Notes under the pieces: model-generated
The model's input: the letters and a program-made list of their open reading frames with translations, nothing else
The model's database searches: none
Told to the model about the DNA's origin: nothing
Shown: positions 9,740 to 53,485 of the stretch, piece after piece
How positions within the stretch are numbered: position 1 is the stretch's first letter
Layout of the letters: every line of letters begins with the position of its first letter
Source of the DNA: Thermoanaerobaculia bacterium
GTDB taxonomy: Bacteria; Acidobacteriota; Thermoanaerobaculia; Gp7-AA8
Length of the DNA stretch: 64,000 bases
Assembly (NCBI GenBank): GCA_041671505.1
Contig: JBAZBK010000014.1
Location: forward strand, 20,395 to 84,394
Direction: 5' to 3'
Translations under genes and position numbers: made by a program

Positions 9740-9774
9740 GAGGTCACCCCCAGCGACAGCGCTGCTGTCGAGTG

Positions 9775-9893
9775 AGAAACGACAAATGACAAATGACAAA
9801 GAGTGACTGCTCCGGGTCAGCAAAACCAGAAGCCTTGCGCTCCCAGTCTCTCTCCCCTTTCGTCATTTGTCATTCGTCATTTGTCATTCGTCT
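9775..9893. repeat. Heptamer-array-flanked cassette A: (CAAATGA/ACGACAA)n - 55-bp core - (TCGTCAT/TTGTCAT)n
   Basis: Left GAAACGACAAATGACAAATGACAAAG. Core GTGACTGCTCCGGGTCAGCAAAACCAGAAGCCTTGCGCTCCCAGTCTCTCTCCCC. Right TCGTCATTTGTCATTCGTCATTTGTCATTCGTC (4.5 heptamers). The arrays are reverse complements of each other. The right array encodes the last residues (..TQTNDK) and TGA stop of the STK gene 9877..12648. Coordinates +/-1. Confidence 0.7.
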
Positions 9894-12648
9894 GCGTCCG
9901 CGCCAGCAGCGGAATCGGGTCGGTGATCACGATCCGCTCCGCCTGGTCGTTCGCCGAGAGCACCATCGTCTTCCCGTCGGGAGAGAGCGAGAAGCTCTCC
10001 GGTGGAGCGAAGAGATCGAACGGCGTCAAATCGCGCCGTGTGGCGCGCGTGTCGCCGCCCGGCTCGAACTTCTGCATCCGAAGTCCGCACGCCCCGCTCT
10101 GTATACAGTCGAGAAATGCGAGCGACTTCCCGTCGGCCGACCATCGCGCCCGACCGGGAGAGAAGTTGCCCTGCATCCCTGCTGCCGGCGGATAGACGAG
10201 CTCGCTGACGCGCTGCACTTCCCCGCCGTCGATGCTCACGACGGACAGGAAACGTGTTCCGACCATCGAGGTCGAGTACGCGACCCACTTCCCGTCGGGC
10301 GAGACCTCAGGGAGCTGCGCCGTGCCTTCACTCGAGATGCGGGTGTCACCCTTCCCGTCGGGGTGGATCTTCCAGACGCCGGCACGAGTAGAGTTGTACG
10401 AGTTGTAGACGACCCATTGTCCGTCGGGGGTCATCGTCGGATTCTCCGCGTCGACGCCGTCGCTCGTCAGCTTGCGCGCGCCGGTGCCGTCCGCGTTCGC
10501 GATCCAGATCTCGTAGTTGCCCGAGCGCCGGGAGCTCCAGAGCAGGTATTTCCCGTCAGGGCTCATCGCCGGATCGAAATCGTCCGCAGGATCCTCGGTT
10601 AGGCGCCGCAGCGCGCCATCTTCGGTCGACACGCTCCAGATGTCGAGGTTCCCGCTCATCGTCGTCGAGAAGACGACGAGCTTGCCGTCGCGCGAGTACG
10701 CCGGCTGGCGATCCTGGCTCGCTCCGCGCGTGAGCCAGCGCCCGGTTCCGCCCGCCGCGCCCGGCAACGGCAGCTCGTGCAGATTTTGCCTAACTACGAT
10801 CTGGTCGACGATCACCCGCCCGTCATTCGTCACGTCGAGACGGAAGACCGGCTCCTGGGTGTAGAAGAGGTTCAGCGACTCGCCTGTCACGAGATTCTTC
10901 AGGAAGACGCGACTCCCCATCCCGCTCGGCGCGTACGTCGTCGAGGTCACCTCGGCCATCACGACGCGGTCGTTGTCGATCCAGGCGACGTTCGAGTGAA
11001 GCCCGGCATTCTGGAGCAGCTTCGGCTCGGTCACCTTCCCGTCGAGCCCGACGAGCGACGGCCGCCGGTTCCGGTAGCCGGGCGACGTGTCGGACACCGC
11101 GATGCGCTTTCCGTCGGGTGACCATCGCGGGTGCTGCCCCGCCATGTTCCTCAGCGTGGCGAGGTCGGTGAGCCCCGAACCGTCGGGATTCACGAGAAGC
11201 ACCTTCGTGTCGTAGCCGTCCTTGCGCTGGACCTGGCGCAGCACTGCGATGCGCGAGCCGTCGGGCGACCAGGCCGCGTCGACGCCGTCCTCGATGATGC
11301 GCCTCGGTGCGCCGCCTAACGCCGGAACCCTAAAGACGTCGGACTTCCCGCTGCCACCCTGCCGAACGAAGAGAACCGTAGCGCCGTCGGGCGAGAAGCT
11401 CGGAGTCCCGTCGGTGCCTTCGGTGAGCGCCAGCTCGCCGCCCCCTTCGATCTGCCGCAGCCAGATTCGCGCGCGACCGTCCCGCGACGACGCGAACGCG
11501 ACCATGCGTCCGTCGGGTGAAGCTGCCGGATGCAGGTCGTGGCCGGAGAACGTGAACGGGCGAAGCACCTGCGCGGGGATGTGGGTCGTGTCCGCACTCC
11601 CTCCGCCTGCACCGCGCTTCGCGATCCAGCCGATCGCGATGCCCGCGAGGAGCGACACGAGCGCGACCACGGCGACGAAACGCCGCGAGGCCCGAGGCCT
11701 CTCCGGCGCAAGGTCGAGCGCCTGCGCCTGCCCCGACATGCTCGAGAGATGGCCGAGCGCGAAGGCGACGTCGTGCATCGCGTGGAAACGCTCGTTGCGG
11801 TTCTTCTCGAGGCAATGCCTGACGATCTGGTCGAGCGCAGGGGAGACGCCCGACGTCGTCGAGCCTCTCGCGCTGGCAAGCTCCGGAGGATCCTCCTTGA
11901 GGATCGCGTTCATCGTCTCCACCTGCGAGTCGCCGCGGAACGCGCGGCGCCCGGTCAGCATCTCGTAGAGGACTGCGCCGAACGAGAAGATGTCGGTGCG
12001 GTGGTCGACAGCCTGTCCACGCACCTGCTCGGGCGACATGTAGCCGACGGTGCCCATCACCGTTCCCGGCGCGGTGTCGCGCTTCTGAGTCGCGGCGTCC
12101 TGATGGTCGCCGCCTTCGATTCCGGTCTGCTTCGCGAGACCGAAGTCGAGAATCTTCACGCGGCCGTCGGTGGTGACGAAGATGTTCTCCGGCTTGAGGT
12201 CGCGATGGACGACGCCGCGATCGTGCGCGGCGGCGAGCCCGGTAGCGATCTGCACGGCGTACTCGATCGCCTTCCGCTGCGGGATCGGAGAGACGCGCGT
12301 CGCATCGTCCTTCGCCGCGCCGGCGGCCTTCTCGTCGAGAAGGCCGCGGAGCGAATGCCCCTCGAGCAGCTCCATCGCGATGAAGGGCCCGCCCTCGTGC
12401 CGCCCCAGCTCGAAAATCGTCACGAGATTCGGATGATTGAGCGCCCCCGCCGCGCGTGCTTCCGACTCGAAGCGCGTCAGGCGGTCCTCGCTCTCGGCGA
12501 ACGACGGCGGCAGGATCTTGATCGCGACGTCACGCCCGATCCGTTCGTCACGCGCGCGATAGACCTCGCCCATGCCTCCGGCGCCGAGCGGCGCAAGGAT
12601 CTCGTAGTTGCCGATGCGGGTTCCGGGAGATACGGGCACGAAGACCAT
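9877..12648 (-). CDS. Serine/threonine protein kinase fused to TolB-like beta-propeller repeats (membrane-anchored)
   Basis: Start at internal Met (MVFVPVSPGTRIGNYEILAPLGAGGMGEVYRARD...) of track ORF. Hanks kinase motifs (VVHRDLKPENIF, DFGLA, GTVGYMSPEQ). A TM segment, then many SPDG/WSPDG TolB-type blades. The C-terminus and stop lie inside heptamer array A. Confidence 0.8.
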   Translation of the reverse strand: MVFVPVSPGTRIGNYEILAPLGAGGMGEVYRARDERIGRDVAIKILPPSFAESEDRLTRFESEARAAGALNHPNLVTIFELGRHEGGPFIAMELLEGHSLRGLLDEKAAGAAKDDATRVSPIPQRKAIEYAVQIATGLAAAHDRGVVHRDLKPENIFVTTDGRVKILDFGLAKQTGIEGGDHQDAATQKRDTAPGTVMGTVGYMSPEQVRGQAVDHRTDIFSFGAVLYEMLTGRRAFRGDSQVETMNAILKEDPPELASARGSTTSGVSPALDQIVRHCLEKNRNERFHAMHDVAFALGHLSSMSGQAQALDLAPERPRASRRFVAVVALVSLLAGIAIGWIAKRGAGGGSADTTHIPAQVLRPFTFSGHDLHPAASPDGRMVAFASSRDGRARIWLRQIEGGGELALTEGTDGTPSFSPDGATVLFVRQGGSGKSDVFRVPALGGAPRRIIEDGVDAAWSPDGSRIAVLRQVQRKDGYDTKVLLVNPDGSGLTDLATLRNMAGQHPRWSPDGKRIAVSDTSPGYRNRRPSLVGLDGKVTEPKLLQNAGLHSNVAWIDNDRVVMAEVTSTTYAPSGMGSRVFLKNLVTGESLNLFYTQEPVFRLDVTNDGRVIVDQIVVRQNLHELPLPGAAGGTGRWLTRGASQDRQPAYSRDGKLVVFSTTMSGNLDIWSVSTEDGALRRLTEDPADDFDPAMSPDGKYLLWSSRRSGNYEIWIANADGTGARKLTSDGVDAENPTMTPDGQWVVYNSYNSTRAGVWKIHPDGKGDTRISSEGTAQLPEVSPDGKWVAYSTSMVGTRFLSVVSIDGGEVQRVSELVYPPAAGMQGNFSPGRARWSADGKSLAFLDCIQSGACGLRMQKFEPGGDTRATRRDLTPFDLFAPPESFSLSPDGKTMVLSANDQAERIVITDPIPLLARTQTNDK

Positions 12649-32845: not shown

Positions 32846-32854
32846 GGGCGCGGA

Positions 32855-33116
32855 GTTGTTAGTTGTTAGTTGTTAGTTGTTAGACATGACGCGAGAGGCG
32901 GGCCAGAGGCCAAAGGCCAGAGGCCAAAGCAGGCAGAGCATCGCAACGGCGTTCTCAAGGACTCGACGCTGTCGGTAAAAATGTGAGCCGCCGCACGTTC
33001 GGATGGCGCATCTACTGATACGTTACTTGATTGGATCGAACGACCCTCGACAACTAACAACTAACAACTAACAACTAACAACTAACAACTAACAACTAAC
33101 AACTAACAACTAACAG
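32855..33116. repeat. Heptamer-array-flanked cassette B: (TTGTTAG)x4 - ~170-bp core - (CTAACAA)x8
   Basis: Left GTTGTTAGTTGTTAGTTGTTAGTTGTTAGAC begins 10 bp after the dapB stop. Right CAACTAACAA(CTAACAA)n..CAGCCAACAGC ends 24 bp before the dapA ATG. The core has lower GC and an inner short tandem (GCCAGAGGCCAAAG x2). Confidence 0.75.
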
Positions 33117-33139
33117 CCAACAGCTCCCCAGGTGCACAC

Positions 33140-34039
33140 ATGATCGCTGACAAGTTTCGCGGGCTCGGTACGGCGCTGGTGACCCCCTTCAAGGCCGACG
33201 GGTCGATCGACGAGTACGGACTCGAGAAGCTCGTGACTCTCCAGATCGAAGGAGGCGTCGACTTTCTCGTGCCGTGCGGCACGACGGGAGAGAATCCGGC
33301 GCTCTCGGCGAGCGAGCATCTCCGCGTGATCGAGCTGGTGATCCGGCGCGCGAACGGCAAGGTGCCGGTGCTGGCCGGCGCGGGCAGCAACTCCACCGAC
33401 AAAGCCACCGACCTCGCTCTCGGCGCGCGCGACCTCGGCGCCGACGGCATCCTCTCGATCACCCCGTTCTACAACAAGCCAAACCCCGACGGCCTGCTCC
33501 GCCACTTCGAGACGCAGGCCGACGCGATCGACGACATGCCGATCATCCTTTACAACTGTCCCGGCCGGACCGGGCTCAACATGACCGCGACGACGACGCT
33601 TCGCATCGCGCGCGCGATCCCGAACGTCGTCGGCGTCAAAGAGGCGTCGGCGAATCTCGAGCAGATCCTCCAGATCCTCCGCGACCGGCTGAAGGACTTC
33701 CTCGTCCTCAGCGGCGACGACGCCTGGACGCTTCCCCTCATCGCGGCCGGAGCCGACGGCGTCATCTCCGTCGCCTCGAACGAGATCCCGCGGCTGATGA
33801 GCGAGCTGGTCGACGCCGCGATGCGCGACGACTTCGCCGCCGCGCGCCCGATCCACGAACGAATCCTCCCGCTCATGACCGGCAACTTCATGGAGTCGAA
33901 CCCGATCCCGGTCAAGGCGGCAATGAAGATGCTCGGCATCATCGACAACGACACCGTCCGCCTGCCTCTGGCGCCGATGTCGGACGAGAACTACGCCAGG
34001 ATGCGGGCGATACTGGCCGAATTGAGAATCGAGAACTGA
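33140..34039 (+). CDS. dapA: 4-hydroxy-tetrahydrodipicolinate synthase
   Basis: TIM-barrel DapA family with active-site Lys region (..NVVGVKEASANLEQ..) and GTTGE motif. The last six codons (ELRIEN) and stop are encoded by the first heptamers of cassette C. Confidence 0.9.
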   Translation: MIADKFRGLGTALVTPFKADGSIDEYGLEKLVTLQIEGGVDFLVPCGTTGENPALSASEHLRVIELVIRRANGKVPVLAGAGSNSTDKATDLALGARDLGADGILSITPFYNKPNPDGLLRHFETQADAIDDMPIILYNCPGRTGLNMTATTTLRIARAIPNVVGVKEASANLEQILQILRDRLKDFLVLSGDDAWTLPLIAAGADGVISVASNEIPRLMSELVDAAMRDDFAAARPIHERILPLMTGNFMESNPIPVKAAMKMLGIIDNDTVRLPLAPMSDENYARMRAILAELRIEN

Positions 34040-34174
34040 GAATTGAGAATTGAGAGAACGCAAACCGCAGGCTTCGCGAGCAGCCAGGGCTTGAGAATCT
34101 GAGATGGTCGAGCTCGCGGGTGAGAGCTCGCGCCTCTGCCATCTCTCAATTCTCAATTCCCAATTCTCAATTCC
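34019..34174. repeat. Heptamer-array-flanked cassette C: (GAATTGA/GAATCGA/GAACTGA)n - ~85-bp core - (TCTCAAT/TCCCAAT)n
   Basis: Left GAATTGAGAATCGAGAACTGAGAATTGAGAATTGAGAG overlaps the dapA 3' end. Right CTCTCAATTCTCAATTCCCAATTCTCAATTCCGC. The core has an internal palindrome (GAGCTCGCGGGTGAGAGCTCGCGCC). Same heptamer family as cassette H. Confidence 0.75.
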
Positions 34175-34197
34175 GCGATCCGAAGGAGCGCGTCACA

Positions 34198-35021: not shown

Positions 35022-35228
35022 GTCAGTGTTCAGTACTCAGTACTGAGTACTGAGTACTGAGTAAGGGCACCAGAGACGAGAGAAAAGAGAAGAGTTAAAA
35101 GTTGAGTTGACCGGGCTCCTCGGCTCCGCAACTCTTCACTCTTCTCTCTTCACTCTTCTCTCTTAACTTTTTCCGTCTTCCGTGTTCTAAACTCAGTACT
35201 CAGTACTCAGTACTCAGTACTCAGTACT
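35022..35228. repeat. Heptamer-array-flanked cassette D: outer (CAGTACT/CTGAGTA)n arrays enclosing nested element X with (AGAGAAG)/(CACTCTT CTCTCTT)n arrays
   Basis: Outer left GTCAGTGTTCAGTACTCAGTACTGAGTACTGAGTACTGAGTAAGG is itself a perfect palindrome. Outer right (CTCAGTA)x5 ends 6 bp before the aminotransferase ATG. Inner X at 35064-35172 is ~85-90% identical in its arms to 49934-50044. Confidence 0.75.
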
Positions 35229-35234
35229 AAAAAG

Positions 35235-44847: not shown

Positions 44848-45123
44848 TCAGGCTTTGGCAGACGCCGATTCGCCTTCGGCGCCAGCCGGCGCCGGCTTCT
44901 CGGCGAGAAGCGTCTTCGCCTTGTCGGTCAGGCCGAATCCGGTCCCTTCCGCCGCAGCCTTGAGATAGCCCTTCGCGGCGAGAGAACGGGCCGGCTCGCC
45001 CCCCCCTCCGTGCGGGTGCTTGATCCCGGCGATCTCCTCTTCGGTCAGTTCGTCCTTCTCGACGCGTCGATACTCCTGGAGGACGCGGAGCTCCTGTGGG
45101 GTGAGGCCGTGCGGAAGTTTCAT
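44848..45123 (-). CDS. Hypothetical small protein (91 aa)
   Basis: ORF with acceptable GC3 bias. No recognisable family; not Phd-like. Cassette E begins 18 bp upstream of its start. Confidence 0.35.
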   Translation of the reverse strand: MKLPHGLTPQELRVLQEYRRVEKDELTEEEIAGIKHPHGGGGEPARSLAAKGYLKAAAEGTGFGLTDKAKTLLAEKPAPAGAEGESASAKA

Positions 45124-45140
45124 GGTCGAAGTCTTCGGGT

Positions 45141-45331
45141 GTCAGTTGTTAGTTGTCAGTTGTTAGTTGTCAGACAGAAGCAGTGGTCGCCATCGGTGTC
45201 ATCGTGCAGTCGTGATGAGAGAAAGTCCATGGGGCATGTCACGGTTTCGAGTGCGCGTCGCGATGGAGGCAACCGGGTGTCATACAACTCTGCCGCTGCC
45301 TATCTAACAACTAACAACTAAAAACTAACAA
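45141..45331. repeat. Heptamer-array-flanked cassette E: (GTTGTTA/GTTGTCA)n - ~130-bp core - (CTAACAA)n
   Basis: Left GTCAGTTGTTAGTTGTCAGTTGTTAGTTGTCAG. Right CTAACAACTAACAACTAAAAACTAACAACC. Same TTGTTAG family as cassette B with an unrelated core. Lies between the lhr stop and the start of the 91-aa ORF. Confidence 0.75.
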
Positions 45332-45339
45332 CCCTCCCT

Positions 45340-48300
45340 CTACGTAGGACCGCGTCCAATCCGTAGCTGATACCCCATCGCCGTCGGCCGGAAGCCTTCG
45401 GCTTCGAGCGCCGCGGCCAGCGGCGATTCGGCGACGGGCCGGCCGTTCACTTCCGCGACGAAGACCGTGCGAAGGCGCTCAGCGTCACGCGCCAGTATGG
45501 ATGCAAGCGCTTTCATCGCGGCGGAGCGTTTCGGCTCGTCCTCTTCGGGGATCACCTGCAATGCGTTGCCTCCCTTGTAGAGGTACGCGACGAGCGCGCC
45601 GTCGACGAGCACGACCCTCGCGCCGACGGCGCGGGCGAGCGTTCGCCCATCCGCAGTGGCCGGCCACGGAAGGAGCGCTCCGTACGGATTCCCAGGGTCG
45701 GTCGCCGCGAGCACGAGCGCCTCGACCGTCGCGGAGTCGGCACGGAGCGATCGCAGGAGATCGATCGCGCCGCCGAGCGCGAACTGTCCGGCGGCGATCC
45801 CTTCGACGAAGTAGCCGCGTCGGATCTTCCCTGCCTCCTCCATCCGCTTGAGCACCTCGTACGCCGCAGAGAATCCGCCGCGCAGCGACTCCGCGTCGGC
45901 GACGTCGCGTGCGACGATCCCGTAGCGCGCGAGAAGCTGCTGCGCGAGCGCCGCCGCCCGCTCGGTGCTCCCCGCCGGGGCCCCTCCGATCGACTCCGCG
46001 AGCGACCATCGTCCCTCGCTTCCCTGCGGCGCGATACGCCGCGCGAGCGACGGCCTGCGAAGCGGCACGAGCGCGGGCCCGCGCGAGGCTCCGGTCCGCG
46101 CGCGAAGCGCGTGAAGGCTGTCGTTCGTGACGACGCCCTTCCAGACGAGGCTCCAGATCGCGTCGAGCGTGTCGTTAGGAAAGCCCCCGCCGAGTCCTTC
46201 GTGAATCCGGTCGAAGAACGATGCGCCAGTTGCTCGGAGAAGATCGACGACGCGCGATTCCATGCCATCGATCGATGGCTCATCCGCATCCCTGCGCAGC
46301 AATGGGAACTGCCCCCCGAGGTAGAGCGCGATGCGGCCGTCCTTCTCGCCGAGCGGCGCGACGCCGCTCCAGGTCACGTCGCCTGTCGCGATCAGCCGGT
46401 CGAGGTCACCCGGCAGATAGTCCTTTACCCGCGCCGGCAGGATCTCCGACTCGAGCAGCGACGCCGCGATCGGCAGCCCCTGCAACGAGTCGATCGCCTC
46501 GACGAGCGATGCCGCTCCCTTCCCCGGCGCCGCCACCCCCTGCCAATGTGCGAGCATTCGCGCGAAGTGCCGCGGCTCCACCGGCTCAATTTCCTTTCGC
46601 AGCTTCGCGAGAGACTGGCGGCGGATCCTCGCGAGCACGTCGGCGTGACAGAGCTCGCGCTGGCTTCCGCGGGGGCGGAACTCGCCTTCGACGATCTTTC
46701 CTTCGATCACGAGCCCGCGCAGCGCTTCGTCGATCTTCCTGCGATCGGTCCCGAGCCTCGCGGCAGCTTCTGCCGCGGTGAACGGGCCGTGCGTTCTCGC
46801 GTATCGCGACACGAGGTCGCGCAGGGGATCATCGACGGGCCGGAGGAACGCCTCGGCCACGCCGCTCGCAATCGTCGCGCCGAGCGCGTCACGATAGCGC
46901 GCGGCATCCTCGATCGCGATGAGACGCCGCTCGCCGGCGACGTCGACCTCGAGCGCGCGGCGCGCACCGAGGAGTGCGCCGACCACAGCGTCGATGCCAT
47001 CGCCCGCGAACCGGAGCGCGAGCTCCTCGCGGCTCAGGTCGCCTAACGACAGCCGCGTGTCGTGCACGGCGTCCGGGGTCGCCTCGCCGTTCGGTTCGTC
47101 GAGGCGCTGCAGCCTCGCCAGGGTCGTCGCGGTGATCTCCTCGTCGAGCAGCTCGCGGAGAGCCGCCTCCCCGAGGAGCTCGCGAAGGCGCGACTGGTCG
47201 ATCGCGAGCGCGTGCGCGCGGCGCTCCGCGAGCGGCGCGTCGCCGTCGTAGAGATAGTTCGCGACGTAGCGGAAGAGTACCGAGCCGGCGAACGGCGACG
47301 GGCGCTCCGTGTCAGAGACGACGAGCCGCGTCTCGCGCCGCTCGAGGCTGCGCATCAGCGCGACGAGCGCCGGCACGTCGAAGAGGTCGCGAAGGCATTC
47401 GCGGTACGCCTCGAGGACGATCGGAAACGAGCCGAACTTCGCGGCGACGTGGAGCAGATCGGACGCCCGTTTGCGCTGGCGCCAGAGTGGTGTCCGCTCG
47501 CGCCCCGCGCGGCGCGGAAGAAGGAGAGCGCGCGCGGCCGACTCGCGAAAGCGCGCGGCGAAGAGCGACGTGCCGGCGAGCTGCCCGACGAGCAGCTCTT
47601 CCACTTCTTCCGCGCCGGGGATGAGCGATTCGACGGCCGGCGGCGAGTCGGTATCGGGAAATCGGATCACGAAGCCGTCGTCGCCCCACATCGCGTCGAC
47701 GTCGAGCCCGCGCTCGCGCCGGACCTTCGCGATCGCGGCCATCGCCCAGGGAGCGATCACGCGACCGCCGAGCGGGCTGAGCACGCAAACGAGCCAGTCG
47801 CCGAGCTCGTCGCGCACGCGTTCGACGACGACAGTGCGGTCGTCGGGGATCGCGCCTCCCGACTCCTTCTGATCGGCGAGGTACTGCACGAGATTTCGCG
47901 CCGCGAGCTCGTCGAGCCCGTGTTTCGAGGTGAGCGTCGCGCGCGCCTTCGCCGGAGGGAGCGCCGCGAGCGAGCGCGTCAGCGCGCCGATCCGCTCGCC
48001 GAATTCGACGGGGCGCGACGCGGAGTCGGCCTTCCAGAACGGCATCTTCCCCGGCTGGCCGGGCGCGGGGATGACGATCACGCGGTCGCGCGTGATCTCT
48101 TCGACGCGCCAGGTCGACGCGCCGAGAACGAACGCATCGCCGACGGCCGTCTCGAAGACCATCTCCTCGTCGAGCTCGCCGACGCGCCCCTGGCCCTTGT
48201 CGGCTCCCGCGAGAAAAACGCCGTAGAGACCGCGATCGGGAATCGTGCCGGCGTTGAGCACGGCCACGCGACGCGCGCCGGCGCGCGAGGAGAGCTGGTC

Positions 48301-49869
48301 GCTCTCGCGATCCCAGAGGATGCGAGGACGAAGCTCCGCGAAGTCGTCCGACGGGTAGAGCCCCGCGAGCATGTCGAGGAGTTGCTCGAACGTCGCGCGG
48401 GAGAGCTGCGCCCAGGGGGCCGCGCGGCGGACCGTCTCGTAGAGCTCGCCGACGCCGTAGTCCTCGACTGCGACCATCGCGACGATCTGCTGCGCGAGGA
48501 CGTCGAGCGGATTGCGCGGAAAGCGCGTCTCCTCGATCTCGCCGCGCGTCATCGCGCGGGAGACGGCGGCGGAAGCGAGCAGGTCGCCGCGGAACTTCGG
48601 AAAGACGATGCCATGGCTCGTCTCGCCGACCTGGTGGCCGGCGCGGCCGATCCGCTGCATCCCGCTTGCGACGGAAGGCGGCGCTTCGATCTGCACGACG
48701 AGGTCGATCGACCCCATGTCGATGCCGAGCTCGAGCGTGGAGGTCGCGACGAGGCCGCGGATCGCGCCGCGCTTGAGCGCATCCTCGATCAGGAGCCGTT
48801 GCTCGCGCGCGATCGAGCCGTGGTGCGCGGCGACGAGCTCCTCGCCCGCGAGCTCGTTGAGCGCGCCGGCGAGCCGTTCCGCGAGCCGCCGCGCATTGAC
48901 GAAAAGCAGCGTGGTCCGGTGTGCGCGGATGAGCTCGACGAGGCGCGGGTGAATCGAGGGCCAGATCGACGGAGACGAGGGGAAGCGGGAGCCATCCTCG
49001 CGCGGCGACGCGCCCGGCTCGTCGAGTGCGGCCATGTCCTCGACCGGGACCTCGACGGTGATCGCGAGCGACTTCCGCTCGCCCGTGTCGACGACGGTGA
49101 CCGGGCGCCACGACTGTTCGCTCGATTCGTCGGCGGGCGTGGTGATCGGATCGGTGGAGTCGTTCTCGCGGCGCCTCACAGCGGCACTCCCGCTCGCCAC
49201 GCCGCCGAGGAAGTGCGCGACCTCCTCGAGCGGCCGCTGCGTTGCCGAGAGGCCGATTCGCTGCAGCGGGCGACCCGCGAGGCGCTCGAGCCGCTCGAGC
49301 GAGAGCGCGAGATGCGCGCCTCGCTTGGTCGGCACGAGCGAGTGGATCTCGTCGACGATCACCGTGTCGACCGAGGCGAGCGACGAGCGCGCCGCCGATG
49401 TCAGGATCAGATAGAGCGACTCGGGCGTCGTGATCAGGATGTCGGCCGGAGCGCGGCGGAATCGGGCGCGTTCGCTCTGAGGCGTGTCGCCGGTGCGGAT
49501 CGCGACGGCGGGAGCGTGGTGACGGGCGCCCAGCGACTGCGCGACGCGCGCGATGCCCTCGAGCGGCTCGCGCAGGTTCCGCTCGATGTCGACGGCAAGC
49601 GCTTTGAGCGGCGAGACGTAGACGACGCGGCAGCGCTCGCGCGCGGGAGGGAGCGGCGAGAACATCAACCGGTCGATGCACCAGAGAAACGCGGTCAGCG
49701 TCTTGCCCGACCCGGTCGGCGCGGTGAGCAGCACCGACTCTCCCTTCGCGATAGCCGGCCACCCGAGCGCCTGCGCGCGCGTCAGCCCCTCGAACGAGGC
49801 GCGAAACCACTCGGCGACGGGAGAGGCGAAGAGACCGAGCGGATCGGGCGAGGACATCGAGGGAACCAT
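45340..49869 (-). CDS. lhr: Lhr-family large ATP-dependent DEAD/DEAH-box helicase
   Basis: 1509 aa. Walker A APTGSGKTL, DEIH box, helicase C domain and the long Lhr-specific C-terminal extension. Confidence 0.85.
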   Translation of the reverse strand: MVPSMSSPDPLGLFASPVAEWFRASFEGLTRAQALGWPAIAKGESVLLTAPTGSGKTLTAFLWCIDRLMFSPLPPARERCRVVYVSPLKALAVDIERNLREPLEGIARVAQSLGARHHAPAVAIRTGDTPQSERARFRRAPADILITTPESLYLILTSAARSSLASVDTVIVDEIHSLVPTKRGAHLALSLERLERLAGRPLQRIGLSATQRPLEEVAHFLGGVASGSAAVRRRENDSTDPITTPADESSEQSWRPVTVVDTGERKSLAITVEVPVEDMAALDEPGASPREDGSRFPSSPSIWPSIHPRLVELIRAHRTTLLFVNARRLAERLAGALNELAGEELVAAHHGSIAREQRLLIEDALKRGAIRGLVATSTLELGIDMGSIDLVVQIEAPPSVASGMQRIGRAGHQVGETSHGIVFPKFRGDLLASAAVSRAMTRGEIEETRFPRNPLDVLAQQIVAMVAVEDYGVGELYETVRRAAPWAQLSRATFEQLLDMLAGLYPSDDFAELRPRILWDRESDQLSSRAGARRVAVLNAGTIPDRGLYGVFLAGADKGQGRVGELDEEMVFETAVGDAFVLGASTWRVEEITRDRVIVIPAPGQPGKMPFWKADSASRPVEFGERIGALTRSLAALPPAKARATLTSKHGLDELAARNLVQYLADQKESGGAIPDDRTVVVERVRDELGDWLVCVLSPLGGRVIAPWAMAAIAKVRRERGLDVDAMWGDDGFVIRFPDTDSPPAVESLIPGAEEVEELLVGQLAGTSLFAARFRESAARALLLPRRAGRERTPLWRQRKRASDLLHVAAKFGSFPIVLEAYRECLRDLFDVPALVALMRSLERRETRLVVSDTERPSPFAGSVLFRYVANYLYDGDAPLAERRAHALAIDQSRLRELLGEAALRELLDEEITATTLARLQRLDEPNGEATPDAVHDTRLSLGDLSREELALRFAGDGIDAVVGALLGARRALEVDVAGERRLIAIEDAARYRDALGATIASGVAEAFLRPVDDPLRDLVSRYARTHGPFTAAEAAARLGTDRRKIDEALRGLVIEGKIVEGEFRPRGSQRELCHADVLARIRRQSLAKLRKEIEPVEPRHFARMLAHWQGVAAPGKGAASLVEAIDSLQGLPIAASLLESEILPARVKDYLPGDLDRLIATGDVTWSGVAPLGEKDGRIALYLGGQFPLLRRDADEPSIDGMESRVVDLLRATGASFFDRIHEGLGGGFPNDTLDAIWSLVWKGVVTNDSLHALRARTGASRGPALVPLRRPSLARRIAPQGSEGRWSLAESIGGAPAGSTERAAALAQQLLARYGIVARDVADAESLRGGFSAAYEVLKRMEEAGKIRRGYFVEGIAAGQFALGGAIDLLRSLRADSATVEALVLAATDPGNPYGALLPWPATADGRTLARAVGARVVLVDGALVAYLYKGGNALQVIPEEDEPKRSAAMKALASILARDAERLRTVFVAEVNGRPVAESPLAAALEAEGFRPTAMGYQLRIGRGPT

Positions 49870-49884
49870 AGCAATAGGGATAGG

Positions 49885-50118
49885 CGGAAGGCGAGGGGCG
49901 AGAGGCGATGAGCAACGGTAAGTGACGGAACGGCAGAGAAGAGTGAAAAGAGAGAAGAGAAGAGTTGAGAGTTGGGAGAGCCGGGCACCCTTGATGACGA
50001 GGTCAACTCTTCACTCTTCTCTCTTCACTCTTAACTCTTCTCTGCCTCCAGCTCCCGCGCTCCGGCTCATGCTCGCCCGCATCCGCCGACTCGCCTCTCG
50101 CCCCTCGCCTTTCGCCTC
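49885..50118. repeat. Composite cassette F: outer (GGCGAGG)n/(TCGCCTC)n heptamer arrays enclosing a second copy of nested element X (49934-50044)
   Basis: Outer left GGCGGAAGGCGAGGGGCGAGAGGCGATGAG. Outer right TCGCCTCTCGCCCCTCGCCTTTCGCCTCG. Inner X arms CAGAGAAGAGTGAAAAGAGAGAAGAGAAGAGTTGAGAGTTG / TCAACTCTTCACTCTTCTCTCTTCACTCTTAACTCTTCTCTG. Starts 15 bp upstream of the lhr start codon, in the divergent lhr/PDE promoter region. Confidence 0.7.
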
Positions 50119-50184
50119 GTGCTAGACACGGCCCCTCGCCACTGCAAGAATAGGTCGCACGACTTCCCACCGACGGACTACGCG

Positions 50185-50949
50185 ATGAGACTGAAAGTGC
50201 TGGGGGCCTACGGGTCAGCGGACGCGACGCATAACCTCACCGGTTACGTGATCGACGACCGCATCGCGATCGACGCGGGAACGCTCGGGTCGAAACTGAC
50301 GCTGCTTCAGCAGTCGAAGATCGAGATCGTCTTCGTCACCCACGTCCACGCCGACCACATCCGCGACCTGCCGACGCTGATCGAGAACCGCTTCCATTCC
50401 GATGCCGCGCCGCTCGAGGTCGTCGCCGAGAAGAGCGTCATGGAGATGCTCCATGCCGACCTCTTCAACGGAAGAGTCTGGCCCGACTTCGAGAAGTTCT
50501 CGTCGCCTCACACGGGGAAGGCGGCGGTCCACTACCGGGCACTCAGCGCGGGCAAGCGGACCGTGATCGCGGGGGCGGCGTTCACCGCGGCGCTCGTCGA
50601 CCACACCGTTGCGACGGCGGGCGCGATCATCGAGCTCGGCGGGCAGGCGATCGCCTTCACCGGCGACACCGGGCCGACTGCCGCGATCTGGAAGAAAGTG
50701 AACAAGACACCCGGCATGGTCGCGATGATCAGCGAGGCGTCGTATCCGAACGACTTCGCCACGATCGCGAAGGAAAGCGGCCACCTGACTCCCGAGCTGT
50801 TCGGCGCGGAGCTCGCGAAGATCGAGGTCGACGCCCCGCTCTACGCGAGCCACCGGAAGCTCCCCTACGAGCGGAAGATCGAGTCGGAGATCCGGAACAT
50901 CCGCGACCGCCGGGCACGGATCCTCGTCGAGAAGCAGTACACGTTCTGA
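50185..50949 (+). CDS. Class II 3',5'-cyclic-nucleotide phosphodiesterase-like MBL-fold hydrolase
   Basis: Start MRLKVLGAYGS (ATG 50185). Metal-binding motif VTHVHADHIRDLP and downstream His/Asp ligands of the CpdP/PDE class II family. 254 aa. Confidence 0.7.
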   Translation: MRLKVLGAYGSADATHNLTGYVIDDRIAIDAGTLGSKLTLLQQSKIEIVFVTHVHADHIRDLPTLIENRFHSDAAPLEVVAEKSVMEMLHADLFNGRVWPDFEKFSSPHTGKAAVHYRALSAGKRTVIAGAAFTAALVDHTVATAGAIIELGGQAIAFTGDTGPTAAIWKKVNKTPGMVAMISEASYPNDFATIAKESGHLTPELFGAELAKIEVDAPLYASHRKLPYERKIESEIRNIRDRRARILVEKQYTF

Positions 50950-51102
50950 AGAATTGAAAATTTGAAATTGAACATTGAAGCTTGAACGCGGGCCAGGCAG
51001 ATCCACCCGCGGAATGTTGCGCCCTCCCCGGGAGGTTGACCGCGACGCCAGAAGCGCGATTCGTGCCTCCCGGCTCTTTTCAATTTTCAATTTTCAATTT
51101 CG
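50948..51102. repeat. Heptamer-array-flanked cassette G: (GAATTGA/AAATTGA-like)n - ~90-bp core - (TTTCAAT)x3
   Basis: Left GAAGAATTGAAAATTTGAAATTGAACATTGAAGCTTGAA starts at the PDE stop codon. Right TTTTCAATTTTCAATTTTCAATTTC ends 4 bp before the GT2 ATG. The core has a CCTCCCCGGGAGG palindrome. Confidence 0.7.
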
Positions 51103-51105
51103 CCC

Positions 51106-51957
51106 ATGCCAAGACCTCGAATCAGCGCACTCGTCACGACGTACAACGAAGCCGAGCACGTGGAGCCATGCCTCCTCTCGCTCGAGTGGGCCGACGAGAT
51201 CGTCCTCGTCGACTCGTTTTCCAACGACGGCACGGCCGAGCTCGTCCGCGACCGCTTCCCGAAGGTCAAGTTCATCCAGCGCGAGTACCTCGGCTCCGCC
51301 GCGCAGAAGAACTTCGGCCTCGACTCGGTCTCGAACGACTGGGTCCTGGTCGTCGACGCCGACGAGCAGGTCACCCCGGAGCTGCGCGACGAGATCCTCC
51401 GCGTCCTGGAGGAAGGGCCGAAGTACTGGGCCTACTGGATCGGCCGATCGAACTTCGTTCTCGGCAAACCGGTGCGCTACAGCGGGCTCCAGCGGGACGG
51501 CGTCCGCCGTCTCATGCACCGGAAGAACGCTCGCTACCCGAACCGCCGCGTCCACACCGACCTCGCGGTCAACGGCCCCGTAGGACGCCTGCGCGGCAAG
51601 TTCAAGCACCTCTACATCCGCTCGTTCGACCACCAGGTCGAGAAGATGACGCGCTACGGTCTCTGGGGCGGCACGCAGCTCCACATCGAAGGGCGCGAAG
51701 TCTCGGCACCCGGAATCCTCGGCCACTCCTTCGCCCGCTTCTTCCGCGACTACGTCGTCAATCTCGGCTTCCTCGACGGAGCCCCCGGTCTCATCACCGT
51801 CGGCCTCCACACCTTCTACACCTTCTGGAAGTACTCCAAGCTCTGGGAGTTCAACCGCCTCAAGGAGCAGGGCAGGGCGCCGAAGCTCCCGAAGATCGAG
51901 ACCGATGAGGAAGTGTGGAAGATGCCTTGGGAAGAGGACGAAGGAGAGACGAATTGA
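51106..51957 (+). CDS. Family 2 glycosyltransferase
   Basis: N-terminal GT-A fold (ISALVTTYNEAEHV...DEIVLVDSFSNDGT...VVDADE DxD). The last three codons (ETN) and stop lie in cassette H. Confidence 0.8.
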   Translation: MPRPRISALVTTYNEAEHVEPCLLSLEWADEIVLVDSFSNDGTAELVRDRFPKVKFIQREYLGSAAQKNFGLDSVSNDWVLVVDADEQVTPELRDEILRVLEEGPKYWAYWIGRSNFVLGKPVRYSGLQRDGVRRLMHRKNARYPNRRVHTDLAVNGPVGRLRGKFKHLYIRSFDHQVEKMTRYGLWGGTQLHIEGREVSAPGILGHSFARFFRDYVVNLGFLDGAPGLITVGLHTFYTFWKYSKLWEFNRLKEQGRAPKLPKIETDEEVWKMPWEEDEGETN

Positions 51958-52062
51958 GAATTGAGAATTGAGAGACATAAAAGAGATATCAATTAGAGAC
52001 TGTTACCGTAGTCAATAATTGAGAATCGTTTCACGTCTCTCAATTCTCAATTCTCAATTCCG
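51951..52062. repeat. Heptamer-array-flanked cassette H: (GAATTGA)x3GAG - 60-bp AT-rich core - CTC(TCAATTC)x3
   Basis: Left GAATTGAGAATTGAGAATTGAGAGAC. Core ATAAAAGAGATATCAATTAGAGACTGTTACCGTAGTCAATAATTGAGAATCGTTTCACGT (~33% GC). Right CTCTCAATTCTCAATTCTCAATTCC. Lies between convergent GT2 and sigma-54 RR genes; the arms are near-perfect reverse complements. Confidence 0.75.
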
Positions 52063-52066
52063 CCCT

Positions 52067-53485
52067 CTACCCCTTCTCTCGCTCGATCGCGAACGCCTTC
52101 ATGCGCGATTCGAGCGTCGACGGGCTCAGCCCGAGCAGTTCCGCTGCGCCGCTCTTCCCCGAGATCTTCCAGTTGCAGCGCGCGAGCGCGTTCACGATGT
52201 TCCTCCGCTCCAGCCTCCGCCAATCGGACGCGGCGACCACCTCGCCGTCGCCCAGTGCATCGTCGAGCGAGCGGCTTCCCGCCGGCGACTCCGGGCCAGA
52301 CGCTTCCGAATGCGGATCGATGAGCGTCTCACGCCCCAGTATTTCTGCCTTGAGTCGCGCCAGCGCATCGAACACGATCGCTCGAAGCTCGCGCACGTTG
52401 CCGGGAAACGAGCAGTGACCGAGCGCGCGAACGAACTCGGGCGAGACCGGCGGCACCTGCTTGCCGAGATCAGCCGCAGCCTCGGCGACGAAGTGCTCCA
52501 CGAGAAGCGGCAGGTCGCCAAGCCGCTCGCGGAGCGGCGGAATCGAGACGTGATACGAACGAAGCCGGTAGTAGAGATCCTTCCGCAGCGCCGAGGTGTT
52601 CTGGTGCGTCGCGGCGACGACGCGGGCGTCCATCCGCTTCGGCGAGTCGGCGCCGAGCGGGAAATACTCCCGCTCCTGGAGCAGCCGGAGCAGCTTGACC
52701 TGGCTGCTCTCGGGCAGGTCGCCGATCTCGTCGAGAAAGAGCGTGCCACCCGCAGCCTGCTCGACCATGCCGCTTCGCGCCGTCGTTGCGCCCGTGAAGG
52801 CGCCCACTCGATGGCCGAACAGCGTGTCTGAGAACATCGCGTCGTCGAGCCCCGCGACGTTTACCGCGATGAACGGCCCCTTCCTCCCGCTCGCGCGGTG
52901 GAGAGCGCGCGCGATCAGTTCCTTTCCCGTTCCGGTCTCTCCGGTGATCAGCACCGGGTGCGCTCCGCGCGCGACCGTTTCGAGATACGAGAAGATGCGC
53001 TCCATCGCCTCGTCGACGGTGAAGATCGACTGGAACGCGGCGCTCCTCGGCGCCTGCCGGTCGAGCAGCGACGCCCGGAGACTCCTGTTCTCCTCCATCA
53101 GCTCCCAGTGCTCGAGCGCGCGACTGATCGTCGCGATGAGCTCATCGACCGGAGCTGGCTTGAGCAAGTAGTCGTACGCGCCGAGCTTCATGCACTCGAC
53201 GGCAGTTCGCGCGTCCTGCTCGGCGGTCACGACGATCACCATCACTTCGGGATTCGACTGCCTAACGATCTCGAGGATCTGCTTCCCTCCCATTCGGGGC
53301 ATGACGAGGTCGAGCAGAAGCACCGCCGGCGGATTGCCGGCGACCAGCCCGGGGACCGCAGGCGCATCGCTCGTCGTCGCCACGTTCTCGAAACCGTTCG
53401 CGCGGAGGATTCTGCTCACGCCGCGCACGACCTGCTCCTCGTCGTCGACGACGAGAATCAGGCGGCTCGCTCTGTCTTCAGCCAA
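52067..53485 (-). CDS. Sigma-54-dependent Fis-family response regulator (NtrC-like)
   Basis: Receiver (ILVVDDEEQ...D). AAA+ sigma-54 activator (GETGTGKELIARALH, GAFTGA). C-terminal HTH. The stop/start overlaps the upstream kinase gene. Confidence 0.9.
   Translation of the reverse strand: MAEDRASRLILVVDDEEQVVRGVSRILRANGFENVATTSDAPAVPGLVAGNPPAVLLLDLVMPRMGGKQILEIVRQSNPEVMVIVVTAEQDARTAVECMKLGAYDYLLKPAPVDELIATISRALEHWELMEENRSLRASLLDRQAPRSAAFQSIFTVDEAMERIFSYLETVARGAHPVLITGETGTGKELIARALHRASGRKGPFIAVNVAGLDDAMFSDTLFGHRVGAFTGATTARSGMVEQAAGGTLFLDEIGDLPESSQVKLLRLLQEREYFPLGADSPKRMDARVVAATHQNTSALRKDLYYRLRSYHVSIPPLRERLGDLPLLVEHFVAEAAADLGKQVPPVSPEFVRALGHCSFPGNVRELRAIVFDALARLKAEILGRETLIDPHSEASGPESPAGSRSLDDALGDGEVVAASDWRRLERRNIVNALARCNWKISGKSGAAELLGLSPSTLESRMKAFAIEREKG

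What the first reader, a model, noticed from the sequence alone, without database searches (positions are those of the whole stretch)
45141..52062. Dense cluster of four cassettes (E, F, G, H) around lhr, the cyclic-nucleotide phosphodiesterase and the GT2 gene, including promoter-proximal positions
Within 7 kb, every intergenic space is a cassette. E fills the gap between the lhr stop and the start of the 91-aa ORF, ending 18 bp before it. F fills the divergent lhr/PDE promoter space. G runs from the PDE stop to 4 bp before the GT2 ATG, with no SD sequence. H lies between the convergent GT2 and sigma-54 RR genes. Either the genes tolerate or use promoters and RBSs inside the cassettes, or expression is by read-through. 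H also has a ~33% GC core unlike anything else in the window, suggesting foreign or non-coding functional sequence such as an sRNA or a binding platform.
Basis: partly seen in the sequence, partly recalled or inferred. Interest (0 to 1): 0.65.

Follow-up and report, generated by a model that had tools for sequence, protein, structure and literature searches.

The report
Paired inverted heptamer-repeat hairpins between genes
Every gap between genes in this 7-kb stretch holds a long hairpin whose two arms are short runs of a 7-base repeat; this kind of bacterial repeat has been reported before, its function is unknown, and here it changes quickly between related genomes while the neighbouring genes appear to keep their own signals.

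Summary
All four intergenic gaps in 45.1-52.1 kb hold one kind of element: 3-5 tandem heptamers, a unique core of 24-125 nt, then the reverse complement of the same heptamers. F is two such elements, one nested inside the other. Four more gaps in the window carry the same kind. Only period 7 is enriched, and the elements cluster non-randomly. The host is a Thermoanaerobaculia (Acidobacteriota) MAG.

Relatives with about 90-94% identical GT2 show fast turnover. G, H and F persist at the same sites, but unit number changes, both arms change together, arms are replaced, new arrays nest inside old ones, and whole elements come and go. Cores are single-copy and unrelated. The G-rich arm comes first in 55 of 59 pairs.

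No Rfam family matches. The PDE promoter-like site lies outside F. GT2 lacks a Shine-Dalgarno sequence with or without G. The heptamer supplies the GT2 stop codon.

The closest published case is the paired GGGAATC arrays of Xanthomonas, whose function is unknown. These units cannot form G-quadruplexes.

Most likely these are self-perpetuating hairpin repeats that are tolerated at gene boundaries. A generic role as RNA or DNA hairpins is possible but unproven.

The parts
45141..45177 (.). Cassette E, first arm: tandem GTTGTCA/GTTGTTA heptamers
   Evidence: (I17)
45178..45299 (.). Cassette E core: unique sequence, 59% GC, not structured on its own
   Evidence: Right-arm junction 'cctatctaacaac' is shared with L180 (read)
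45300..45332 (.). Cassette E, second arm: TAACAAC heptamers, complementary to the first arm
49882..49908 (.). Cassette F outer element, first arm (AGGCGAG units); begins 12 nt from the lhr ATG
   Evidence: (I25)
49932..49974 (.). Cassette F inner (nested) element, first arm (AAGAGWG / AGAGTTG units)
   Evidence: (I4). Same arm family as the nested element at 35072-35161
49975..50003 (.). Cassette F inner core (29 nt)
50004..50046 (.). Cassette F inner element, second arm (CTCTTCA units)
50091..50117 (.). Cassette F outer element, second arm (CTCGCCT units); 4 units here and about 11 in relative L186 by my count
50123..50151 (+). Sigma-70-like promoter candidate for the PDE gene (TAGACA-17-AAGAAT); lies outside cassette F and recurs in relatives
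   Evidence: The same motif was read by eye in L002, L004, L175, L180, L181, L185 and L186
50950..50987 (.). Cassette G, first arm (ATTGAAN units); starts directly after the PDE stop codon
50988..51073 (.). Cassette G core: 72% GC, orthologous to the L186 core
51074..51100 (.). Cassette G, second arm (TTTTCAA units); ends 5 nt before the GT2 ATG, with no SD sequence
51951..51976 (.). Cassette H, first arm (GAATTGA x3 plus GAGA); contains the GT2 stop codon at 51955-51957
   Evidence: (I1)
51977..52036 (.). Cassette H core: 32% GC, an imperfect inner continuation of the stem
   Evidence: (z = -2.6)
52037..52060 (.). Cassette H, second arm (TCAATTC x3); 6 nt from the stop of the convergent sigma-54 RR gene
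9774..9895 (.). Same class elsewhere in the window (TGACAAA / TTTGTCA); the stop codon of the minus-strand gene 9877-12765 lies inside an arm
   Evidence: (I9)
32854..33124 (.). Same class (AGTTGTT x4 / ACAACTA x9), upstream of the 299-aa ORF 33140-34039 (dapA by my reading, not checked with Pfam)
34016..34176 (.). Same class, with the same GAATTGA arms as H but an unrelated core; the stop codon of ORF 33140-34039 lies inside the first arm
   Evidence: (I5)
35022..35231 (.). Same class (AGTACTG / ACTCAGT) with a nested inner element at 35072-35161 (AGAGAAG / CTCTTCA); ends 3 nt before the next ATG
   Evidence: (I6, I20)

Best explanation
The four cassettes belong to a family of hairpin-forming intergenic repeats that recurs through this window and in related genomes. 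Each arm is a short tandem array of a heptamer, so each element is a pair of inverted long simple-sequence repeats.

They are not genes for a known RNA, and they are not the promoters of the flanking genes.

Inferred mechanism: the arrays expand and contract by replication slippage in 7-nt steps. The two arms are kept complementary because one arm serves as template for the other (hairpin or quasi-palindrome template switching), because pairing is selected, or both. New arrays arise or insert inside old ones. Whole elements are gained and lost.

They accumulate flush against stop codons and just upstream of start codons or promoters, because only there are they harmless. When the stem closes, the upstream stop and the downstream start end up next to each other, so operon expression can survive the insertion.

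Any function is probably generic to a 25-35-bp stem at a gene boundary: protection of RNA 3' ends, a processing or termination site, or a DNA cruciform. It is probably not specific to lhr, PDE or GT2.
For: Shown:
- Shared architecture with differing heptamers; only period 7 is enriched.
- Very stable folds.
- Cores are unrelated to each other and single-copy, and are unstructured on their own except for H.
- No Rfam family matches.

Turnover among relatives:
- G is present in the window, L186, L175, L180 and L002. It is absent in L181 and L185 (9-nt spacer). L001 has no period-7 array anywhere, and its PDE-GT2 spacer is about 43 nt as inferred from BLAST coordinates.
- The G arms are GAATTGA-type in L175, L180 and L002 but ATTGAAA/TTTTCAA in the window and L186. 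Nine of 37 stem pairs changed on both sides and stayed paired.
- Unit number differs between the window and L186 in F and G.
- The E site is empty in L002 (18-nt spacer).
- In L186 the E-site arms belong to a different family (AGTACTG), around a core that matches the L180 and L185 cores (z = 4.6 and 3.0).
- Nesting is seen in F, at 35.0-35.2 kb, and in the L180 copy of H.
- H is absent from L002 and L186, and there the GT2 C-terminus is different and longer.

Gene signals are independent of the cassettes:
- The PDE promoter-like site lies outside F.
- GT2 lacks an SD sequence with or without G.

Other points:
- A GC-rich element of the same class sits in frame inside the lhr linker in L003 and L004 and is tolerated there.
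- Published analogue: Xanthomonas has 70-75 convergent pairs of GGGAATC arrays per genome. They are intergenic, mostly 4 units long, variable between species, and no regulatory role was found (PMC4692102).
- Heptamers are the commonest long SSR unit in bacteria and this has been attributed to polymerase slippage (Mrazek 2007, as summarised in PMC4679880).
Against: - G, H and F persist at orthologous sites across about 6-10% GT2 protein divergence with the arms still complementary. That could reflect selection for a function.
- A small set of heptamers recurs at many loci and in unrelated contigs. In IMG/VR, GAATTGA x3 was found in 51 stretches and AGTTGTT x3 in 45, against 23 and 10 for composition-matched controls. 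Slippage from local sequence alone does not predict this.
- The strict arm order, G-rich arm first in 55 of 59 pairs, is not explained by slippage plus template switching.
- No insertion mechanism was identified. I saw no target-site duplication at the filled-versus-empty sites I compared by eye.
- Nothing is known about transcription here.
Confidence: 0.5

Rival explanations
1. The cassettes are adaptive cis-acting RNA hairpins that act as insulators or coupling devices. A transcript entering from a flanking gene carries both arms and folds into a long stem. The stem could be cut by RNase III, could block exonucleases or RNA polymerase, and holds the upstream stop next to the downstream start. 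A transcript that starts inside the core carries only the G-poor second arm, as an unstructured leader directly before an ATG that has no SD sequence.
For: - Arms sit 0-9 nt from the upstream stop, or contain it. The second arm ends 3-20 nt before the start codons downstream of cassettes B, C, D, E and G; for the cassette at 9774-9895 the distance is 34 nt.
- Several of those starts lack an SD sequence.
- Orthologous G and H keep their pairing through changes on both sides.
- In paired arrays across about 1.4 Mb of loci, the strand next to a start codon is C-rich in 22 of 27 cases, and the strand just after a stop is G-rich in 37 of 49.
- In other contigs, single CTCAATT arrays lie next to gene starts. 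TAACTGA repeats in Beggiatoaceae behave similarly and were proposed to be sites for translational regulation (PMC4679880).
Against: - The sense strand does not fold better than the antisense strand: it is less stable in 7 of 10 cassettes lying between co-directional genes.
- Elements are present or absent among close relatives without obvious compensation.
- H lies between convergent genes and F between divergent genes, where coupling is irrelevant.
- For unpaired arrays the orientation bias upstream of starts is not significant (47 versus 35).
- No terminator-like U-tract follows any cassette.
- Rehm et al. found no regulatory effect for the Xanthomonas arrays.
Confidence: 0.25
2. The cassettes are non-autonomous mobile elements of the MITE, foldback or REPIN type. 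Their terminal inverted repeats are heptamer arrays, and they are moved in trans by a transposase encoded elsewhere in the genome, possibly an HUH / IS200-type enzyme that acts on single-stranded hairpins and leaves no target duplication.
For: - Filled versus empty sites among relatives.
- Nested copies.
- The same arms at several loci. GAATTGA-type copies at two unrelated loci share an inner junction, GAGAGA-YATAAAA ... TCTCTC, by my reading of the sequences.
- AT-rich arms in a 66% GC genome, with the same array found in contigs of very different GC content and in viral contigs.
- Local clustering.
- An in-frame copy inside lhr, reminiscent of Rickettsia palindromic elements (my own knowledge).
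Against: - Cores of copies that share arms are unrelated (C versus H). Loops of GAATTGA hairpins in other contigs also show no shared sequence. The whole element is therefore not copied.
- In L186 the arms were exchanged around a retained core.
- I saw no target-site duplication.
- No transposase was linked to the elements. The window's ORFs were not scanned for one.
Confidence: 0.15
3. The cassettes are platforms for a sequence-specific DNA-binding or RNA-binding protein that reads 7-nt units, or non-B DNA elements such as G-quadruplexes.
For: - Strict 7-nt periodicity.
- A limited set of recurring units. Their mean best match to AATTGAG is higher than for shuffled units (4.4 versus 3.8 of 7, P about 0.0003). 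This was a post-hoc test on a list I chose.
- A preference for about 4 units per arm, as in Xanthomonas.
Against: - More than ten different units occur in one genome, ranging from AT-rich to GC-rich, so there is no common motif of real strength.
- Most units (GAATTGA, AGTTGTT, TGACAAA) contain no G-runs and cannot form G-quadruplexes. Yet they show the same pairing, orientation and unit number that was attributed to G4 formation in Xanthomonas.
Confidence: 0.05

Closest known systems
Paired (convergent) GGGAATC heptamer arrays of Xanthomonas campestris and X. axonopodis (Rehm et al. 2015, PLoS One, PMC4692102)
   Same: - Tandem heptamers, mostly about 4 units per array.
- About 90% intergenic and close to the 3' end of the upstream ORF.
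- 70-75 cases per genome in which two arrays face each other on opposite strands and could form a stem-loop or cruciform.
- The G-rich strand points inward.
- Length and sequence vary between related species while the site is kept.
- No function was found.
   Different: - Xanthomonas has one G-rich unit, interpreted through G-quadruplex formation. Here more than ten unit families coexist, and most are AT-rich and cannot form G4.
- Not described there: nested elements, arms supplying stop codons, an in-frame copy inside a gene, and concerted arm switching.
- The host phylum differs (Acidobacteriota).
Long simple-sequence repeats of bacteria, cyanobacterial STRR heptamers, and TAACTGA repeats of Beggiatoaceae, Cyanobacteria and Bacteroidetes (Mrazek 2007; Mazel 1990; MacGregor 2015, PMC4679880)
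   Same: - 7-nt unit, intergenic, patchy phylogenetic distribution.
- Indels in 7-nt steps between strains.
- Often a few nucleotides upstream of start codons that lack an SD sequence.
   Different: - Those are described as direct arrays. MacGregor reports only one indirect repeat among 170 sets.
- Here the defining feature is the inverted pair around a unique core.
- The unit sequences differ.
REP / BIME / REPIN elements of Enterobacteria and Pseudomonas (Bertels and Rainey 2011, PMC3116915; other properties from my own knowledge)
   Same: - Intergenic hairpins placed after stop codons inside operons, often as inverted doublets.
- Hundreds of copies, several families per genome, locally clustered.
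- Proposed roles in mRNA 3'-end protection and attenuation.
   Different: - REP arms are unique imperfect palindromes of about 20-35 nt with a conserved sequence, not tandem heptamers.
- Whole REPINs, including the spacer, are copied. Here the cores are unrelated.
- No RAYT-type transposase has been linked to these elements.
Foldback transposons of eukaryotes (Drosophila FB; my own knowledge)
   Same: Long inverted terminal arms built from short tandem repeats, arms of unequal length, and a variable central part.
   Different: - Those are eukaryotic and kilobase-scale, with target-site duplications and sometimes a transposase gene.
- Nothing of that kind is seen here.

Membership tests
Paired heptameric SSR arrays (Xanthomonas type, Rehm 2015) | Tandem repeats with a 7-nt unit, at least 2 units | tested here: met
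   16 period-7 arrays in the window, against 0-2 for periods 5, 6, 8, 9 and 10
Paired heptameric SSR arrays (Xanthomonas type, Rehm 2015) | Two arrays close together on opposite strands in convergent orientation (G-rich strand pointing inward) | tested here: met
   All four cassettes. 55 of 59 pairs across all loci held, and 20 of 22 pairs with units other than GAATTGA
Paired heptameric SSR arrays (Xanthomonas type, Rehm 2015) | Predominantly intergenic and close to the end of the upstream ORF | tested here: met
   Arms lie 0-9 nt from stop codons, or contain them
Paired heptameric SSR arrays (Xanthomonas type, Rehm 2015) | G-quadruplex-forming unit (G3 tract in each unit) | tested here: not met
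   The units GTTGTYA, AAGAGWG, ATTGAAN and GAATTGA contain no G3 tract
Cyanobacterial STRR | Units CCCCAGT, TTGGTCA or CAACAGT in heterocystous cyanobacteria | tested here: not met
   Different units and an Acidobacteriota host. Best matches to the local units are 4 of 7, which is not significant
REP / REPIN | Copies share a conserved palindrome sequence, and doublets are copied together with their spacer | tested here: not met
   Cores are unrelated and single-copy
REP / REPIN | An associated RAYT (IS200-like) transposase gene in the genome | not tested
   Only 64 kb of the genome is held, and its ORFs were not scanned for transposases
MITE | Target-site duplication flanking terminal inverted repeats | tested here: not met
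   I saw no duplication when comparing filled and empty sites by eye: E versus L002, G versus L181 and L185, and the CYTH|PGK site in L175 versus L181
MITE | Internal sequence conserved among copies of a family | tested here: not met
   C and H share arms but not cores. Loops of GAATTGA hairpins in other contigs show no shared sequence
Integron attC site | Imperfect hairpin bounded by RYYYAAC ... GTTRRRY | tested here: not met
   B and E read GTTGTYA ... TAACAAC, the opposite order, and positions 4-6 are not purines. Whether an integrase is present was not tested
Intrinsic terminator | Short GC-rich stem followed by a U-tract | tested here: not met
   Three of the four terminator-like hits lie outside the cassettes. 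The fourth is a 5-bp stem inside the E core (45244-45227, minus strand). The count (4) is below the shuffle expectation of 4.4
Any Rfam family (the sRNA suggested for the H core) | Score at or above the family gathering threshold | tested here: not met
   0 hits at gathering threshold in the whole window. In E-value mode only eukaryotic miRNA-precursor models match, on both strands and far below threshold

The most novel reading that the evidence does not exclude
The arrays may not be copied from elsewhere. They could be written in place by an enzyme that adds heptamer units to DNA 3' ends, such as a telomerase-like reverse transcriptase or a slipping repair polymerase.

If both ends of a double-strand break in intergenic DNA were healed this way and then rejoined, the result would be exactly what is seen:
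- the same unit on both sides in inverted orientation;
- the synthesised (G-rich) strand always pointing inward;
- arms of unequal length;
- unrelated filler cores;
- nesting after a second break;
- no target-site duplication.

A related reading is that the hairpins are structure-recognised recombination sites that allow gain and loss of single genes. In the window lhr is bounded by E and F, and lhr is missing from L180 and L185.
Probability: 0.06. Interest if true: 0.9.

Novelty: new variant of a known kind. Interest (0 to 1): 0.5.

Why it matters
Tandem heptamers are reported to be the most common long simple repeats in most of the bacterial genomes surveyed, and they have had no accepted explanation since cyanobacterial STRRs were described in 1990. 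The only study I found of the paired, inverted form explained it through G-quadruplexes.

This locus and its relatives show the same pairing rule, the same arm order and a similar arm length with units that cannot form quadruplexes. That removes the G4 explanation as a general one. It points instead to the hairpin, or to the process that makes it.

The series of relatives gives a concrete evolutionary sequence that a mechanism must explain: gain, loss, 7-nt steps, concerted arm switching, nesting, arms that donate stop codons, and an in-frame copy inside a helicase gene.

There is also a practical consequence. In several relatives (L176-L180) assembled contigs start or end inside an arm, and the arms alter predicted gene ends.

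Tried and rejected
1. **Known RNA family or sRNA in the H core.** Rejected by Rfam at gathering threshold and in E-value mode.
2. **RNA function specific to the sense strand.** The sense strand does not fold better than the antisense strand, and G-U pairs are not enriched on it.
3. **A stop codon in all three frames as the purpose of the first arm.** Units of first arms contain a stop triplet in 42% of cases, against 49% expected from their composition. The idea is rejected as a by-product of composition.
4. **Cores as copies of a mobile cargo.** All-against-all comparison and BLAST against all loci held found only orthologous matches.
5. **Cores as independent structured RNAs.** z-scores fall between -1.2 and +0.6, except H at -2.6.
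6. **Intrinsic terminators.** None is defined by a cassette stem; the single hit inside a cassette is a 5-bp stem in the E core, and the count is at the shuffle expectation.
7. **attC sites.** The arm order is wrong.
8. **A single common ancestor motif for all units.** Only a weak, post-hoc signal.
9. **Highly specific units.** Composition-matched control heptamer arrays also occur in IMG/VR (23 and 10 stretches, against 45 and 51), so the enrichment is only 2- to 5-fold.
10. **Strain-level variation.** The one other contig read that encodes the identical PDE protein (L174) is 100% identical to the window, so it gave no variation.
11. **Homology between the window E core and the L186, L180 and L185 cores.** Not significant. 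Orthology of window E rests on the shared arm junction with L180.
12. **Orientation bias of unpaired arrays.** Weak: 47 versus 35 upstream of starts, not significant.
13. **Literature.** The searches found no paper describing this architecture in Acidobacteria. Vioque 1997, on STRRs in RNase P RNA, is not held.

Full report
**1. What is there**

The region 45.1-52.1 kb contains five genes:
- a 91-aa ORF (44848-45123, minus strand; no Pfam hit);
- lhr (45340-49869, minus strand);
- a metallo-beta-lactamase-fold phosphodiesterase (PDE) (50185-50949, plus strand);
- a GT2 glycosyltransferase (51106-51957, plus strand);
- a sigma-54 response regulator (52067-53485, minus strand).

Each of the four spaces between them holds an element with the same layout. 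The layout is 3-5 tandem copies of a heptamer, then a non-repetitive core of 24-125 nt, then the reverse complement of the same heptamers.

The units differ between elements:
- E: GTTGTYA / TAACAAC.
- F outer: AGGCGAG / CTCGCCT.
- F inner: AAGAGWG / CTCTTCA.
- G: ATTGAAN / TTTTCAA.
- H: GAATTGA / TCAATTC.

F is two elements, one nested inside the core of the other.

The same class occurs at 9774-9895, 32854-33124, 34016-34176 and 35022-35231. The last of these again carries a nested inner element, from the same arm family as F inner.

**2. Is it more than chance?**

- Period-7 arrays number 16 in the window. Periods 5, 6 and 8 give 0, period 9 gives 2 and period 10 gives 1.
- Each whole element folds far better than dinucleotide shuffles, with z from -3.0 to -10.8.
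- The three lowest-GC 100-nt stretches of this 66% GC window all lie in cassettes.
- If the window has 45-65 intergenic gaps (my estimate), eight cassette-bearing gaps falling into three runs or fewer has P of about 0.0001-0.0008.

**3. Organism and relatives**

The window is identical to a Logan contig from SRR18595301. Its GT2 protein equals NCBI MFA6957034.1, from a Thermoanaerobaculia MAG.

I fetched syntenic loci by two routes:
- Through the PDE protein: L002 (93% identical), L001 (70%), L003 (63%) and L004 (61%).
- Through members of the GT2 90% cluster: L175 (94.0%), L177 (94.7%), L180 (92.6%), L181 (89.8%), L185 (90.1%) and L186 (91.5%).

**4. How the elements evolve**

*Site G (between PDE and GT2).*
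- An element is present in the window, L186, L175, L180 and L002.
- It is absent in L181 and L185, where the PDE stop and the GT2 ATG are 9 nt apart.
- L001 has no period-7 array, and its spacer is about 43 nt as inferred from BLAST coordinates.
- In L175, L180 and L002 the arms are GAATTGA-type. In the window and L186 both arms have switched to ATTGAAA / TTTTCAA. Nine of 37 stem pairs changed on both sides and remained paired.

*Site H (downstream of GT2).*
- An alignable, AT-rich, largely palindromic element is present in the window, L175, L177 and L181.
- L185 has different arms (GGATTGC) and, by my reading, a CTCAATTC remnant inside.
- L180 has an ATTTCGA array nested within the GAATTGA array.
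- L002 and L186 have no element, and their GT2 proteins end differently and are longer.
- Where H is present, its first heptamer encodes the last codon and the stop of GT2 (...ETN*).

*Site F (between lhr and PDE).*
- The nested pair is shared with L186, but the unit numbers differ. By my count the outer second arm has 4 units here and about 11 in L186.
- L002 and L181 carry different elements at this site (ATTTCGA; GGCCARA with ATGWSGA inside).
- L004 has none.

*Site E (between the 91-aa ORF and lhr).*
- L002 has an 18-nt spacer and no element.
- L186 has AGTCCTG / AGTACTG arms. By my reading a decayed GTCAGCTGTC remnant lies outside the new first arm. Its core matches the L180 and L185 cores (z = 4.6 and 3.0).
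- L180 and L185 lack lhr altogether.
- The L180 junction retains the E right-arm junction and, by my reading, the last unit of the F outer second arm. One deletion endpoint therefore appears to lie inside an array (read).

*Inside a gene.* A GC-rich member of the class, (TCGGGAG)n ... (CTCCCGA)n, lies in frame inside the disordered linker of Lhr in L003 and L004.

*Assembly.* Several assembled contigs start or end inside an arm (L176-L180).

**5. Properties that constrain the mechanism**

- Cores of different elements are unrelated and single-copy among the loci held. They have ordinary GC content and no significant structure of their own. H is the exception, with z = -2.6.
- Elements with identical arms have unrelated cores (C and H). 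Across contigs of 35-68% GC, the commonest GAATTGA form is four units, a loop of 13-22 nt with no shared sequence, and four units.
- In 55 of 59 pairs the first arm has more G than C. This holds on either strand because the element is symmetric. Among pairs with units other than GAATTGA the count is 20 of 22. Some of these pairs are orthologous copies, so they are not fully independent.
- Relative to genes, paired arrays are G-rich on the coding strand after a stop (37 of 49) and C-rich before a start (22 of 27). Unpaired arrays show only a weak bias.
- Sense and antisense strands fold equally well.
- Stop triplets in the first arm are no more frequent than composition predicts.
- Units recur across loci and across unrelated contigs. 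In IMG/VR the counts are 51 (GAATTGA x3) and 45 (AGTTGTT x3), against 23 and 10 for composition-matched controls.

**6.

- PDE has a sigma-70-like site (TAGACA-17-AAGAAT, 50123-50151) between F and its start. The same motif recurs in relatives with and without a cassette at that site.
- GT2 lacks a Shine-Dalgarno sequence whether or not G is present. In the cassette-free state it sits 9 nt behind the PDE stop, which suggests translational coupling.
- When G is present, the closed stem again places the PDE stop (0 nt before the stem) next to the GT2 start (5 nt after it). I infer that this is why the insertion is tolerated.
- The lhr promoter cannot be located from sequence.
- The H core is not a known RNA. 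It is the AT-rich inner part of the stem of the GAATTGA element type. By my reading, its inner junction also appears in a copy at the CYTH|PGK site of L175 and L185.

**7. Interpretation**

The best-supported reading is a family of self-perpetuating hairpin repeats built from heptamer arrays.

- Shown by the relatives: unit-number differences between orthologous copies, concerted change of both arms, nesting, gain and loss, and tolerance only at gene boundaries or in a disordered linker.
- Inferred: arm-to-arm template switching, and a generic hairpin effect on RNA or DNA.
- Left unexplained: the fixed arm order and the recurrence of particular units.

Those two unexplained points keep three rivals alive: an adaptive RNA insulator or coupling device, a trans-mobilised foldback element, and enzymatic writing of repeats at DNA ends.

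**8. Comparison with what is known**

- The closest description is that of Rehm et al. 2015 for Xanthomonas. They report 70-75 convergent pairs of GGGAATC arrays per genome, mostly four units long, intergenic, near the upstream ORF, variable between species, and of unknown function.
- Heptamers are the commonest long SSR unit in most of the bacterial genomes surveyed (Mrazek 2007, as summarised in PMC4679880).
- TAACTGA direct repeats precede start codons lacking an SD sequence in Beggiatoaceae.
- The present case differs in four ways: it has many unit families that cannot form G-quadruplexes; it shows nesting; its arms contribute stop codons; and it has a traceable evolutionary series.
- It is not a REP or REPIN, a MITE, an attC site, an intrinsic terminator or any Rfam family by the features I could test.

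**9. Verdict**

The finding is a real, non-random and well-defined feature. It is a new variant of a repeat class that has been reported but remains unexplained. It is not a set of promoters or an sRNA locus. Interest is moderate. The mechanism is unknown, but the locus offers clean test cases.

Noticed in passing
window 4029-4127, 41588-41686, 43395-43480 (and possibly 19150-19293): A second, unrelated hairpin repeat family with conserved arms of about 30 nt (GGAGGGATCTCGCAGGCTGGTAC ... GTACCAGCCTGCGAGGTCCCTCC) and variable loops. It looks like a classical REP-like or MITE-like element.
   Followed up: partly
window 8066-8199: Two direct copies of a 53-nt GC-rich palindrome (GTGGCCACGGCCTCYGGCCGTGGCGCGGAGGCCGGAGGCCTCCGCCAC) lie between convergent ORFs. 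Each copy contains a CGGAGGC x2 heptamer doublet.
   Followed up: no
window 50185-50949: The PDE-like metallo-beta-lactamase protein carries a precomputed hit to PF23023 (Anti-Pycsar Apyc1), a family of cyclic-nucleotide-degrading enzymes, in addition to Lactamase_B_2 and a weak PDEase_II hit.
   Followed up: no
L004 9122-9217 and the corresponding lhr linker in L003: A GC-rich inverted heptamer cassette (TCGGGAG ... CTCCCGA) lies in frame inside the lhr coding sequence. It encodes a low-complexity linker (GSGVGSRGSGVG ... SDSRPPTPDSRS) in the variable, low-complexity stretch between conserved Lhr blocks, which in the window protein corresponds to the gap between the DEAD and Helicase_C domains.
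   Followed up: partly
L180 6527-7110 and L185 6566-7228, compared with window 45123-50185: Two relatives lack the 4.5-kb lhr gene entirely. The 91-aa ORF then faces the PDE promoter region across a single degenerate cassette. By my reading, one deletion endpoint falls in the F outer second arm, which suggests the arrays are fragile or recombinogenic.
   Followed up: partly
window 51955-51957, 34037-34039 and 9877-9879: Three genes take their stop codon (TGA) from the first heptamer of a cassette: GT2, the 299-aa ORF 33140-34039 (dapA by my reading) and the 962-aa minus-strand ORF. Where H is missing (L002, L186), GT2 has a different and longer C-terminus.
   Followed up: yes
L181 11215-11235 compared with L175 4480-4640: The 'empty' CYTH|PGK site of L181 still carries one unit with both inner junctions fused (GAATTGAGAGACTC). 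This looks like a collapsed or excised cassette rather than a site that was never occupied.
   Followed up: no
window 44196-44310: A 30-nt tandem repeat (3.8 copies, 87% matches) lies inside the Fic-domain ORF 43587-44474.
   Followed up: no
L154, L136, L144, L135, L018 (IMG/VR and metagenome contigs): In several contigs of 51-59% GC, GAATTGA arrays, single or paired, occur in many successive intergenic gaps. They often lie next to the start of the following gene. The organisms were not identified.
   Followed up: partly
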